From Octopus sinensis (taxonomy: Eukaryota): 64,000 bases of DNA. Shown piece by piece: positions 4,261 through 63,499 of the stretch; the first letter of the stretch is position 1; each line of letters starts with the position of its first letter. Below the pieces are notes generated by a model. It saw nothing but the letters and a program-made list of their open reading frames with translations, searched no databases and was not told the origin of the DNA. The position numbers and the translations under genes were made by a program. The stretch is taken from the NCBI RefSeq assembly GCF_006345805.1, contig NC_042999.1, positions 35,278,001 to 35,342,000 on the forward strand. Direction: 5' to 3'.

Positions 4261-5239
4261 AGTTATCTGTTGTGGATTTAATATAAGGTATGTATTTTCT
4301 ATTTATTTTTACATTGTGTGTAGCATTAGGGTCTTTCAGATAAATTGAAACATTTTACAATGCTTAAAACTACTTATAAATACTAAAATAATGGTAGTAG
4401 ACATATAATTTTAATCTTATTTACTACACGCTTTTTTCAATTATATATAGGTATGTTCATATTTTCCGTTTGTTGTCTTTCATTTAATCATACATATATA
4501 TATATTATATATATAATATATATATATATATATATATATATATATATTTATTTATATATATATATATAAATATATATAAAAAAGGAGATGTGGAACACGA
4601 GTTGTGATATAAAAAAAGGAAATGAAGAAAATGCTGACAAAATAATTTAAGTAAGGGAGAGTGTATTTAATTAGGTGAAAGTTCTTTTACCGGTTGCGCA
4701 TTTGTTATGCTTATCAAAAGATATTTTTTTAAGAGAGATAGAGTTCCTTTCTGATAGATTTTTTCTCTTTATATATATATATATATATATATATATATAT
4801 ATATATATATCGTGAAGCATATATTTGCCACTTAAATGTGGCTAAAACTTATGGGTGGATGCTACTGTAGCTTGTATCCCAGAAGACACCTCCTCTAGCT
4901 GCTATTGACACACTTCTGTGTCCTATCAGTATTTGCAAGAGAAGCTATCCTTCCCATCTCCAGCCTGATGTGATACACACGGACCCGAGTTTTGGGTATT
5001 GACCCGTCATCAGCGTGAGACAATCACCGGTTGTCGATGTGAACGTGTTCCCAATGCAAATATATATCTATATATATATATATTATATATATATTATATA
5101 TATATATATATATATATATATATATATCCTTTTCAAGATAGATAGATAGAGAGATAGATAGATAGATAGATAGATAGATAGATAGATAGATAGATAGATA
5201 GATAGATAGATAGATAGATAGATAGATAGATAGATAGAT

Positions 5240-6680
5240 ATGTATAATGATTACTTAGATAAACATGACAGCTGTTTCTGCTCCACTAGATTGATAAGAG
5301 GTAGACCCCCACAATAACTTCAATGGCCAAGAAGACCTTTAAAGAGAGCTGGAACGGGTGAACCAGAGCTATACGGACTCCTGAAAATAATGATCACGTT
5401 AAAAAGATGGTCGCATATGCGGTGGATTCGAGTACCAAGAGACACTCAAGGGTTATATATTTAAGTTTAAGAACAAGATATACGCCCAAGAGGAAGGTAT
5501 AGCCATCGGTGTCAGTATTGCTGGCGATGAGGCTAACCTATTTATGCTATGGTTGGATAGGTGACTTAAAGAGAAATGAGCAGAGAACTCCATTAACCTA
5601 ATCATGTACACCCGCTACGTGGATGATATCAACATGGTAGCCAAAGCCCCCCTACAAGACAATGTTGATGATCTAGAAGCTAACACTATGGAAAGCATCC
5701 AACAAATAGCTAACTCCATCCACCAGAGTATAGAAATAACGATAGATTACCCTAGTAAGTACCCTAACAATAGATTACCCGTTTTAAACACTGACCTCTG
5801 GCTAGAAATGAAGAACTGTAAGGTCCAGATCCTTTCACTCTCATTATGCCAAACCCATGGCCTCTAAGTACCTTGTTAACGATTGCGGACAATGCCAAGT
5901 TCAACATTCTTACAGCTGACTTGGTGAAATTGATTAGAAATGTGTCACGCATGTGCGACTCTATGGAATTGGAAAGACACATACAACACTTCATCCACTA
6001 CATGCAGCTCCCGGGCTACAACCAAAGGGATAGGATTAGAGTTTACAAAGGAGCCAGGACTAAGCACAAAGCCATCATAGAGAGTGATGCTAAAGGGATC
6101 TGCCCGCTGTACAGGAGTAAATCCTAGAACAGCACAGAAAGGACCAGTAATAAGATAAATAAGGCCAACACTTGGTATGACAACGAAATATACCAGTGGC
6201 GGTGAATTAGCACATCTTTTTAGAAAAATATTAAGGCTAATCTACGAATTAAAGTAGTAGAGAGGCCTGGTGCCCCTTTGAAATTCCTGATCTGCAATAC
6301 TATCCCTTTTGAAAGTCCCCCTGTACGGACTACAATTGTGTTTTATATAGGATGAAGCCACGTGTTAACTGTAAGGTTAGGAATATAGTGTGTAGCTTAT
6401 GATGTACTGAGGGGTGGTGCAGAAACATGACACCTACCATTATTGGAGAGACTGCACGCAGCATAGGAGAGCGTATAAGTGAACATTGGTGACAGCTCAA
6501 TGAAAGGAAAATCTCGTCAGTACTCTAACAACATGCTCAAGCAGAACATGGAGACTCGATTAATAACATAGAGGTTAAGGTACTATCGACACATAGAAAA
6601 CTGACACTTAGAGCACAGAGGATGCCCACATATCAGTAGACAGACTGAGCCTCAATAGAAAATACGAATTGAACAGTAAC
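5240..6680 (+). pseudogene. Decayed PLE reverse transcriptase + GIY-YIG
   Basis: YTRYVDDI, LPVL, IGETARSIGERISEH motifs, with stops and frameshifts. Confidence 0.8.
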
Positions 6681-7275
6681 ACCTACCACCACATACACGC
6701 CACATGACTAAAGACAAAGGGGATGAGAAGCGAGAGAGAAAAATCGTAAATAATACACAGAAACACACAAGGTATTACACACACAATAGACAGATATGCA
6801 CTTGTGATACTTATGAGAAATAGAGATTGGCGTATAAAAAATAAATAAATAGATAAATAGATAAATATATAAATATATTTGTCACATAATTGTGATAAAT
6901 ATAAGACACGGAGATAGATAAAATGAATAAATGAAACTATATAAAGGGCATGGATACATATAACATACGAAGCGAACCCATACACACTCAAGAAATTTCA
7001 CGGACGGCCACAACTATATCAACAACACGATTAACAGCGACAGCAACAGCCGTGACAATGTTGGCAATAACAGCAACAACTACCATGATGGCAAAACCGT
7101 GGGCGAACACACATACACAGAATATAGATATAAAATAGTGAGAAACTATAGATGATCCAGCATTTTTGGAGGGGGTCTTAAGATAGCAGCAGCACAATGG
7201 GGTGAGAAGATGGGGCTGAGTAGAAGGCCACACTACTGCTAAAATCTATGACGCACACACAGGCATGACGTGATA

Positions 7276-7320
7276 CACACGAACCCGAGTTTCTGGGTAT
7301 TGACCCGTCATCAGCGTGTG
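7276..7320 (-). ncRNA. Minimal type-I hammerhead ribozyme motif (degenerate twin at 4976-5017)
   Basis: Reverse complement: CACACG CTGATGA C-GGGT CAAT ACCC-A GAAA CTCGGG TT CGTGTG. Confidence 0.65.
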
Positions 7321-61560: not shown

Positions 61561-61642
61561 ATTACGTAAGAAACAGCTGTAACGAGCTGACACTTATCCA
61601 TCGTGCGTTTTTATTCAGTTGATTATAATATATGTTATATGT

Positions 61643-62917
61643 AAAGCGGCGATCTGGCAGAAATGCTAGCACGCCGGGCAAAATGCTTAGCGGTACTTCG
61701 TCTGCCGCTACGTTCTGAGTCCAAATTCCGCCGAGGTCGACTTTGCCTTTCATCCTTTCGGGGTCGAAAAATTAAGTACCATTTACGCACTGGGGTCAAT
61801 GTAATCGACCTAATTCCTTTGTCTGTCCTTGTTTGTCCCCTCTGTGTTTAGCCCCTTGTGGTTAGTAAAGAAATAGGTACTTCGTCTGCCGCTACGTTCT
61901 GAGTCCAAATTCCGCCGAGGTCGACTTTGCCTTTCATCCTTTCGGGGTCGAAAAATTAAGTACCAGTTACGCACTGGGGTCAATTTAATCGACCTAATCC
62001 GTTTGTCTGTCCTTGTTTGTCCCCTCTGTGTTTAGCCCCCTGTGGGTAGTAAAGAAATAGGTATTTCGTCTGCCGCTACGTTCTGAGTTCAAATTCCGCC
62101 GAGGTCGACTTTGCCTTTCATCCTTTCGGGGTCGATTAAATAAGTACCAGTTACGCACTGGGGTCGATATAATCGACTTAATCCGTTTGTTTGTCCTTGT
62201 TTGTCCTCTCTGTGTTTAGCCCCTTGTGGGTAGTAAAGAAATAGGTATTTCGTCTGCCGCTACGTTCTGAGTTCAAATTCAGCCGAGGTCGACTTTGCCT
62301 TTCATCCCTTCGGGGTCGAAAAATTAAGTACCAGTTACGCACTGGGGTCAATGTAATCGACCTAATCCCTTTGTTTGTCCTTGTTTGTCCCCTCTGTGTT
62401 TAGCCCCCTGTGGGTAGTAAAGAAATAGGTATTTCGTCTGCCGCTACGTTCTGAGTTCAAATTCCGCCGAGGTCGACTTTGCCTTTCATCCTTTCGGGGT
62501 CGATTAAATAAGTACCAGTTACGCACTGGGGTCGATATAATCGACTTAATCCGTTTGTTTGTCCTTGTTTGTCCTCTCTGTGTTTAGCCCCTTGTGGGTA
62601 GTAAAGAAATAGGTACGTTCTGAGTTCAAATTCAGCCGAGGTCGACTTTGCCTTTCATCCTTTCGGGATCGAAAAATTAAGTACCAGTTACGCACTGGGG
62701 TCGATGTAATCGACCTAATCCCTTTGTCTGTCCTTGTTTGTCCCTTCTGTGTTTAGCCCCTTGTGAGTAGTAAAGAAATAGGTATTTCGTCTACCGCTAC
62801 GTTCTGAATTTTACTTTTCAGGGAAGATGAATTAAGTACCAGTTGCGTACTGATGTCGATCTAATCGATTGGCCTCCTCCCCCAAAATTTCGGGCCTTGT
62901 GCTTAGAGAGGAAAAGA
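61643..62917 (+). repeat. SINE family C head followed by 6 tandem 184-bp headless units
   Basis: Unit starts 61692, 61876, 62060, 62244, 62428, 62612 (169 bp), partial 62781. Confidence 0.92.
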
Positions 62918-63457
62918 ATATATGTTGTATGTATACAAAACATGTTCTTAGCTACGCACAGAATTGAAAACAATCTCTTATTTTCTAATTCTGGGCTTTG
63001 AATTTTTAGTATTTGATACACATCGAAACCGGTAATATTTTATAAAAGTCGGTTAATGTAACAAATATAGAAATAGTTATCCTACCAGATTAAAGGAAAA
63101 AGAAGTAAAAAAATCTTTACACATACTTCCGGGTTGTGTCCATCTTTACTTTTTACCTATAACCTTTGATTTACGTGAATGTTTAACCCCCCTTGCAACT
63201 ATATATATATATATATATATTATATATATATATATATATATATATATATATATATATATATATATATATATATATATATATAATAAATATTAGGGAATAT
63301 ATCCAAATTTACAGGGAAAAAAAATCAGATTTAGGATTAAATCCAATTTTATAGTAAATATTATAAAATATTATTTGAGACAAAACCACTATTTTGCAAA
63401 ACAAACAAGGAAAGACTTAATCAATACATAAAATTTAATAAATAGTCAAAAAAACCG

Positions 63458-63499
63458 CCACTACAATCGTTTCTGTCTTGATCGACAATCTTCAGGTGG
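63458..63499 (-). ncRNA. Minimal type-I hammerhead ribozyme motif
   Basis: Reverse complement CCAC CTGAAGA T-TGTC GATCAA GACA GAAA CGATTG TA GTGG. Confidence 0.7.

What the first reader, a model, noticed from the sequence alone, without database searches (positions are those of the whole stretch)
4681..63499. Many sequence-unrelated hammerheads across 64 kb
Seen: beyond the array, distinct motifs with their own paired stems lie at 7276-7320(-) with a twin at 4976-5017(-), 8910-8979(+), 10546-10608(-, mutated site), 13113-13234(+), 22301-22361(+), 29088-29173(+) with an inverted twin at ~24785-24870, 29589-29632(-) and 63458-63499(-). Stem III is nearly always a short (near-)palindrome: CTCGAG, CAGCTG, CCGG, CAATTG, CGATTG. 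Established: PLE pseudo-LTRs carry such minimal hammerheads. Inference: about one family per 7 kb implies a very large ribozyme repertoire in this genome, which could cleave any host pre-mRNA running through the region.
Basis: partly seen in the sequence, partly recalled or inferred. Interest (0 to 1): 0.75.

Follow-up and report, generated by a model that had tools for sequence, protein, structure and literature searches.

The report
Penelope retrotransposon ends carrying hammerheads
The scattered hammerhead-ribozyme motifs are real and belong to multi-copy repeat families, three of them tied to Penelope-type jumping genes and the rest likely of the same known kind; lone copies are likely too weak to cut host RNA, and the genome holds an estimated hundred thousand or more of them.

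Summary
The motifs are real. All ten listed sites are hammerhead-shaped. A descriptor finds 8 outside the array against 0.17 in shuffles, and every family tested is dispersed genome-wide. Three families are tied to Penelope-like (PLE) RT/GIY-YIG ORFs; the rest show PLE-style ends without a proven ORF. Subfamilies show compensatory stem changes. Corrections: 10546 is not mutated but misparsed (intact AUA site); 4976 lacks G12; 24785/29088 are two arms of one insertion; some 'unrelated' families share sequence. A sample of 80 evenly spaced 10-kb stretches gives about one motif per 17 kb (about 155,000; 84,000-237,000), so this window is about three times richer than average. Many PLE hammerhead families per genome, palindromic stem III and U3-A8 cores are published (PMC4209133). 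Cleavage of host pre-mRNA is unsupported: no host exon found, solo motifs are reported to need a same-family partner, and cross-family pairs here do not fit. The scan reported the density and the SGC fold before on other DNA.

The parts
4976..5017 (-). Type I hammerhead, 7276 family; G12 deleted, so it cannot act as catalytic half; GUC site kept
7276..7320 (-). Type I minimal hammerhead; C.A mismatch next to the core in stem II; site GUU here, GUC in the family majority
7540..7579 (+).
8909..8980 (+). Type I hammerhead, older family (77-86% identity among hits); stem II damaged in this copy; shares the stem II base with the array
9405..9467 (-).
10214..10260 (-). Second copy of the SGC family, lacking the cleavage-site block
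10542..10602 (-). Type I hammerhead with 4-bp palindromic stem III and intact AUA site; element about 10413-10694 plus an inverted short arm 10695-10772
13113..13234 (+). Type I hammerhead with 97-nt stem-loop II and a 3-bp stem I; two stem II mismatches in this copy
21811..21892 (-). Inverted partial arm of the 22301 element (first half of the core only)
22301..22361 (+). Type I hammerhead, odd-length stem III palindrome, site GUU; this copy altered at 11.1 and in stem III
24739..24992 (-). Left (inverted) arm of a young PLE insertion, with a U4C hammerhead at 24785-24870
24990..25724 (+). Right arm, first part: GIY-YIG endonuclease end (25263-25628) with Hydra-type CxxC and CxH motifs
25718..28975 (-). 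Later LINE insertion (APE and RT) splitting the right arm; 7-bp target duplication; its 5' end is capped by half of a 29589-family hammerhead (28921-28977)
28976..29230 (+). Right arm, 3' end, with a U4C hammerhead at 29088-29173 (family-wide core CCGAAGA, site GUC)
29589..29632 (-). U3-A8 hammerhead in the 3' end of the PLE whose ORF is 30238-32403
30238..32403 (-). PLE ORF, RT plus C-terminal GIY-YIG, with DKG and a CX4CxxC linker (Neptune-type by motif)
41714..41752 (+). Decayed relative of the 29589 hammerhead, followed by the 5' region of a related PLE (41874-42609)
43539..48724 (.). 535-bp two-armed tandem array with ten hammerheads (3 on -, 7 on +); young retrozyme-like family; outside this finding but counted
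63458..63499 (-). Type I hammerhead of a young PLE; full element seen at L197 (two direct motifs 5.7 kb apart flanking RT and GIY-YIG; Hydra-type motifs)

Best explanation
The motifs are minimal type I hammerheads in multi-copy repeat families, three of which carry them in the terminal repeat of a Penelope-like retrotransposon and the rest likely likewise, and they would cut only when two copies of the same family pair through their palindromic stem III, so lone copies are likely near-silent in host RNA. Each insertion is copied from the element's fixed 3' end and is usually cut short at the 5' side, often as two back-to-back arms. Because the hammerhead lies about 100-300 nt from that end, almost every stub keeps one. 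Many families active at different times account for the variety. Selection on the fold appears to act in the master elements (compensatory subfamily changes; in the 10542 family only N7 of the core varies), and inserted copies then decay. Shown: motifs, families, ORF link for three families, covariation, density. Inferred: PLE origin of the other families, dimer-dependent cleavage, low activity in host RNA.
For: Excess over shuffles. Each of 9 dispersed families searched has 365-3692 first-look candidates. Same-strand GIY-YIG just upstream of the motif in 13 of 20 loci of the 29088 family, and the RT/EN ORF upstream in 9 of 20 loci of the 29589 family, one of them the window's own. Full element with two direct motifs at L197. 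Fixed 3' end and variable 5' extent in all 8 families profiled. Stem II pair 10.3:11.3 in the 10542 family: 65 G-C, 25 A-U, 5 G.U, 5 mismatched of 100 listed of 698 matches (hand count). In three sequencing runs N7 is the only core position among the listed variants (6 rows not shown). The 7276 clade swaps G-C and A-U in stem II. Cross-family pairs do not fit. Predicted intramolecular stem III pairing is <=0.05 in 8 of 10 motifs, while the self-duplex is -4.1 to -12.3 kcal/mol in 9 of 10. Copies run on past the site, with no clear pile-up of ends there. Literature: PMC4209133 (parts 1-2 of 4), PMC11167929 (passages).
Against: No ORF link for 7276, 7540, 8910, 10542, 13113 or 22301 despite. Nearby GIY-YIG fragments were not contiguous, and the two multi-kb direct pairs fetched held no PLE ORF, so some families may be non-autonomous. 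Each compensatory change may be a single event inherited by a subfamily. The folding calculation had no active-ribozyme control. The 10542 family (stem III 0.35-0.40 as monomer) could cut alone. No cleavage or RNA-end data.
Confidence: 0.8

Rival explanations
1. The motifs cut host pre-mRNAs that run through them and so shape transcript processing.
For: About 155,000 motifs genome-wide. Ten near-identical motifs lie in tandem in the array. 7276 and 4976 lie on one strand 2.3 kb apart and fit as enzyme and substrate halves (stem I 6 bp, stem III 8/8). Xenopus retrozymes are depleted in introns (bioRxiv 10.64898/2026.07.22.740005, passages).
Against: No host exon found: 90 ORFs scanned gave only transposon-type domains (short exons would be missed). 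Single motifs were inactive and dimers slow in vitro (PMC4209133). No RNA-seq reads began or ended at the site in the anole PLE (PMC11167929). Cross-family pairs do not fit.
Confidence: 0.12
2. The six families without an ORF link are non-autonomous retrozymes or SINE-like elements that borrow PLE enzymes, not ends of coding PLEs.
For: Shared sequence mostly reaches only a few hundred bases upstream of the motif. A relative of the 7276 motif forms 353-bp tandem arrays. 8910 shares its stem II base with the 535-bp non-coding array.
Against: Coding PLEs are also mostly short stubs (29088 and 29589 families). The 63458 family has about 2.9 kb between ORF end and motif, so 1.5-kb flanks would miss an ORF.
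Confidence: 0.35
3. The motifs no longer cut at all and are kept only as a protein-binding or folding signal of the PLE RNA.
For: A young family (98-99% identity) is fixed for U4C, a change reported to lower activity in vitro (PMC3088659, passage). Catalytic mutants do not affect insertion in vitro (PMC11167929). Inserted copies extend past the site.
Against: Core, NUH site and stems are kept across 24 clusters. N7 varies while the other core positions do not. U4C still permits viroid infectivity (PMC3088659), and the anole motif cuts in vitro (PMC11167929).
Confidence: 0.15
4. Chance matches in AT-rich DNA.
For: The permissive descriptor was tuned after seeing the motifs; with variant cores it gives 0-5 hits per 800 kb of shuffled DNA.
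Against: Canonical-core hits 29 vs 0 in five shuffles; 5 vs 0.00 in the window; reversed-pattern controls 0; covariation.
Confidence: 0.01

Closest known systems
Minimal type I hammerheads in the pLTRs of metazoan PLEs (Cervera and de la Pena 2014, PMC4209133; parts 1-2 of 4 read)
   Same: Type I order, short palindromic stem III, short stem I, unpaired base before stem II, U3-A8 variant, many heterogeneous families per genome, mostly solo copies, opposite-strand pairs 100-700 bp apart.
   Different: Number: about 155,000 estimated here against about 2,000-9,000 per genome in that paper (different descriptors). Stem-loop II up to 97 nt. A family-wide U4C core is not mentioned in the parts read; supplements not seen.
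Hydra-clade and Neptune-clade EN+ PLEs (Craig et al. 2021, PMC8557442; section 11 and passages)
   Same: 63458-family protein has DKT, CxCX5C, CxxC and CxH motifs; 29088-family EN has CxxC and CxH; the 30238 ORF has DKG and CX4CxxC; insertions beside (TA)n; inverted 5'-truncated arms.
   Different: Assignment by motif only, no tree. The L197 element is 5.7 kb, longer than the <3 kb given for most Hydra elements.
Metazoan non-LTR retrozymes (PMC7229834 passages; bioRxiv 10.64898/2026.07.22.740005 part 1 and passages)
   Same: Tandem non-coding repeats with a type I hammerhead per unit: the 535-bp array and the 353-bp relative of 7276. Coral has >6000 motifs in 16 families; axolotl up to 120,000 copies.
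   Different: Unit longer than the 170-400 nt reported, two-armed layout; circular RNA not shown here.
Type-SGC hammerheads (HRIMA-1; Eckert et al. 2023, PMC10085705, passages)
   Same: Order site-GAAA-CUGANGA, a 3-nt linker between stem I and stem II strands, covarying stem I (motif at 9405-9467).
   Different: That work found no SGC example in genomes of known organisms; here at least 469 copies lie in an animal genome. Stem II next to the core is weak, and cleavage is untested.

Membership tests
Type I hammerhead ribozyme | Core CUGANGA...GAAA...NUH in type I order with stems I-III | tested here: met
   7 of 10 listed motifs pass the permissive scan and 8910 the strict scan; 13113 fits at family level; 4976 lacks G12
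Type I hammerhead ribozyme | Compensatory base-pair changes | tested here: met
   10542 family 10.3:11.3; 7276 clade stem II; possibly one event each
Type I hammerhead ribozyme | Rfam RF00163 gathering score | tested here: not met
   Best listed window hit 31.7 bits < 34; the model fits canonical rather than minimal forms
Type I hammerhead ribozyme | Site-specific self-cleavage | not testable with these tools
   No bench or raw-read data; genomic end test noisy
PLE pLTR hammerhead | Motif in the terminal repeat of an element with RT and GIY-YIG | tested here: met
   29088, 29589 and 63458 families
PLE pLTR hammerhead | Same ORF link for the 7276, 7540, 8910, 10542, 13113 and 22301 families | tested here: inconclusive
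   No contiguous ORF found
PLE pLTR hammerhead | Fixed 3' end, 5' truncation, inverted arms | tested here: met
   8 families profiled; inverted arms
PLE pLTR hammerhead | Palindromic stem III suited to dimers | tested here: met
Hydra / Neptune clades | RT phylogeny with reference PLEs | not tested
   No reference proteins held; motif match only
Non-LTR retrozyme (array) | Tandem non-coding units each with a type I hammerhead, dispersed | tested here: met
Non-LTR retrozyme (array) | Circular RNA intermediate | not testable with these tools
   Only assembled contigs were offered
Type-SGC hammerhead (9405-9467) | Blocks in S-G-C order with covarying pseudoknotted stem I | tested here: met
   54 C-G, 37 U-A, 3 U.G, 6 mismatched of 100 listed of 469 matches (hand count)
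Type-SGC hammerhead (9405-9467) | Well-formed stem II and the helix joining stems I and II | tested here: inconclusive
   A.C mismatch and G.U pairs next to the core; the SGC descriptor alone gave 2 hits per 800 kb vs 1, 1, 0 in shuffles

The most novel reading that the evidence does not exclude
If it cuts, it is a genome-encoded animal example of a permutation published only from environmental RNA, and one that needs no partner copy. Together with 10^5 type I motifs in dozens of families, some fixed for variant cores (U4C, U3-A8, G3-C8), this genome would be the densest hammerhead store among the papers I read and a natural library for testing what the core tolerates.
Probability: 0.5. Interest if true: 0.65.

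Novelty: new member of a known kind. Interest (0 to 1): 0.3.

Why it matters
As posed, the finding is the published PLE-hammerhead association seen in one more genome, so it is ordinary in kind. The scale matters: about 10^5 motifs that Rfam mostly misses make it possible to test whether PLE hammerheads cut in vivo, by orientation bias in introns or by pooled cleavage assays. The family-specific dimer requirement offers a likely reason why a genome can tolerate so many. The SGC candidate would matter more if it cuts. My library searches found no paper describing these motifs in octopus, but the scan's own notes already report both points elsewhere.

Tried and rejected
A family-wide non-canonical 'GAC' site at 10546: my first parse, rejected once a longer stem III gave an intact AUA site. 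Looking for full-length elements of five unlinked families through close pairs and longer flanks: the two multi-kb direct pairs held no PLE ORF, and nearby GIY-YIG fragments were not contiguous with the elements. Walking from the GIY-YIG at 19879 linked it to none of the window's families; it is a C-terminal EN, so its neighbour in L379 is no evidence of a Naiad link for the SGC family. Pile-up of element ends at cleavage sites: 2 3' ends within -4..+3, both in the 29589 family, no clear peak; the 5' side was swamped by (TA)n hits and the output was cut; inconclusive. Rfam genome search scored only 74 of 265,813 candidates, useless for counting. Sequencing runs: no RNA holder listed; no RNA was laid on the window, so transcription is untested. 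One of four runs laid had no cover. ARAGORN found no tRNA. Lunse et al. on PLE hammerhead dimers is not held in the library; I saw only its citation in PMC6765202, and it may already describe some core variants. Supplements of PMC4209133 and PMC8557442 were not seen and may list octopus families.
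Full report
Setting. The window is G000:C3:35278001-35342000 of a 2.72-Gb genome. At least 53% of it matches repeats seen in other stretches I held. That it is an octopus genome is my inference from recalled SINE sequences and the scan's earlier notes, not a tool result. Of 106 non-simple ORFs of 75 aa or more, 80 were scanned with Pfam and 10 longer ORFs; the only hits were RT, APE, GIY-YIG, integrase, DDE and HTH domains.

Observation. A strict type I descriptor finds 12 cores against 0.075 in shuffles. 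A permissive one, tuned after seeing the motifs, finds 8 outside the array against 0.17 (0 of 100 shuffles reach 8). Comparison with 18-25 genomic loci per family shows the state of each copy. 29088/24785 and 29589 match their family. 7276 has GUU for GUC. 8910, 13113, 22301 and 63458 are altered in stem II, and 4976 has lost G12. The 'mutated site' at 10546 is a misparse: stem III is TTGG-GA-CCAA, the site is AUA, and stem I pairs with the bases just 5' of the core. That sequence is the family state in 87 of 100 listed of 261 matches.

Families. Each motif lies in a dispersed family (365-3692 first-look candidates, 40 scored each), ranging from about 80% to 99% identity. All 8 profiled share a fixed end about 100-300 nt past the motif and variable 5' lengths, often with an inverted second arm. 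Three are tied to PLE proteins. The 29088 family has a GIY-YIG ending about 190 nt upstream in 13 of 20 loci. The 29589 family follows the RT-GIY-YIG ORF 30238-32403 (9 of 20 loci, including the window's own). The 63458 family flanks a frameshifted RT-GIY-YIG ORF as two direct copies 5.7 kb apart in L197. Motifs place the first and third near Hydra and the second near Neptune (PMC8557442 section 11); no tree was made. For six families I found no contiguous ORF. The 24785/29088 'twins' are the arms of one insertion whose right arm was later split by a 3.25-kb LINE.

Covariation. In the 10542 family pair 10.3:11.3 is G-C in 65, A-U in 25, G.U in 5 and mismatched in 5 of the first 100 of 698 matches. 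In contigs of three runs, N7 is the only core position among the listed variants. Among 1174 matches to a core-plus-CTCGAG pattern, relatives of 7276 swap G-C and A-U at 10.2:11.2. They also show that the families are not all unrelated: 8910 and the array share the base of stem II, and U4 sisters of the U4C family exist.

Density. I took 80 stretches of 10 kb at round coordinates on contigs C1-C18. The permissive descriptor gave 48 hits in 23 stretches against 5, 3, 1, 0, 3 in shuffles; canonical cores gave 29 against 0. Cores were 29 C3-G8 with U4, 6 with C4, 6 U3-A8, 4 G3-C8 and 3 A3-U8, the last likely background. Net density is one per 17 kb, about 155,000 genome-wide (bootstrap 84,000-237,000); damaged copies are not counted. 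The hits form 24 clusters, 20 seen in one stretch only, so the family count is far from saturated (Chao1 about 120, rough, false hits included). Independent insertions occur about once per 26 kb; the window has 8 in 64 kb (Poisson P 0.004, but the window was picked for this). Published counts are lower per base: about 2,000-9,000 minimal motifs in schistosome, coelacanth and Xenopus (PMC4209133), >6000 in coral, up to 120,000 retrozyme copies in axolotl (PMC7229834), 235 Rfam hits in giant squid (PMC6962438, passage). Descriptors differ, so the comparison is loose.

Mechanism. Reverse transcription starts near the fixed 3' end and usually stops early, so nearly every stub keeps a hammerhead (inferred; PMC11167929 reports internal initiation and no need for cleavage in vitro). 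Stem III is a palindrome with a loop of 0-2 nt; predicted pairing within one molecule is at most 0.05 in 8 of 10 motifs, while two copies pair well (no control ribozyme folded). In a dimer both stem I and stem III form between the two copies (established model, recalled; PMC4209133 describes the dimer). No same-strand cross-family pair fits both stems. Only the array and the 7276/4976 pair could form dimers in one transcript. Single motifs were inactive and dimers slow in vitro (PMC4209133). So 'could cleave any host pre-mRNA' is unlikely as a general claim, and no host gene was shown here; short exons would have been missed and transcription is untested.

Beyond the list. Prompted by earlier notes, I looked for scrambled orders and found one hit in the window, 9405-9467(-), in site-GAAA-CUGANGA order with a 3-nt linker between the stem I and stem II strands. 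Its pseudoknotted stem I covaries: 54 C-G, 37 U-A, 3 U.G, 6 mismatched among 100 listed of 469 matches. PMC10085705 (passages) found no type-SGC example in genomes of known organisms, and it was the only paper with the term.

Verdict. Real, a new member of a known kind, and noted before by this scan on other DNA. Interest 0.3; the SGC candidate and the scale carry what interest there is.

Noticed in passing
window 9405-9467(-), second copy 10214-10260(-): Candidate type-SGC hammerhead; at least 469 genomic copies with a covarying stem I; the second copy lacks the site block.
   Followed up: partly
window 28921-28977(-): The 5' end of the LINE insertion is joined to the 5' half of a 29589-family hammerhead that stops 3 nt before the predicted cut; possibly a template switch onto PLE RNA, possibly microhomology.
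   Followed up: partly
window 7515-7540(+): An A-box-like stretch (consensus recalled) precedes the 7540 hammerhead; this may be the tRNA-headed PLE of earlier notes. ARAGORN finds no tRNA.
   Followed up: no
window 43539-48724: 535-bp two-armed tandem array, 95-100% identical to arrays on many contigs (970 candidates); young retrozyme-like family.
   Followed up: partly
L281, L297, L318: G3-C8 core hammerheads (4 of 48 sampled hits) with UUU sites.
   Followed up: no
L276, L284, L300, L336, L338 and window 29088: U4C cores recur in several clusters; fixed in the young 29088 family while sister families keep U4.
   Followed up: partly
G000:C1:105634457-105636603 and C1:148255725-148257169: 353-bp tandem arrays carrying a relative of the 7276 hammerhead.
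   Followed up: no
window 19879-20208(+): GIY-YIG fragment of a very abundant PLE family (12,508 candidates); no shared canonical hammerhead found within 1.5 kb downstream in 30 loci.
   Followed up: partly
window 60750-61239: 245-nt perfect inverted repeat with no spacer, centred on a microsatellite.
   Followed up: no
window 61692-62807: Six tandem copies of a 184-bp SINE-like unit that also occurs singly at 21408-21640 and 36524-36751.
   Followed up: no
window 1-704 and 2095-2797: 98% identical duplication flanking the 100-N gap at 705-804; possibly an assembly artefact.
   Followed up: no
window 17500-19740 and 32928-33989: Decayed Gypsy-like pol fragments and a broken mariner transposase.
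   Followed up: no
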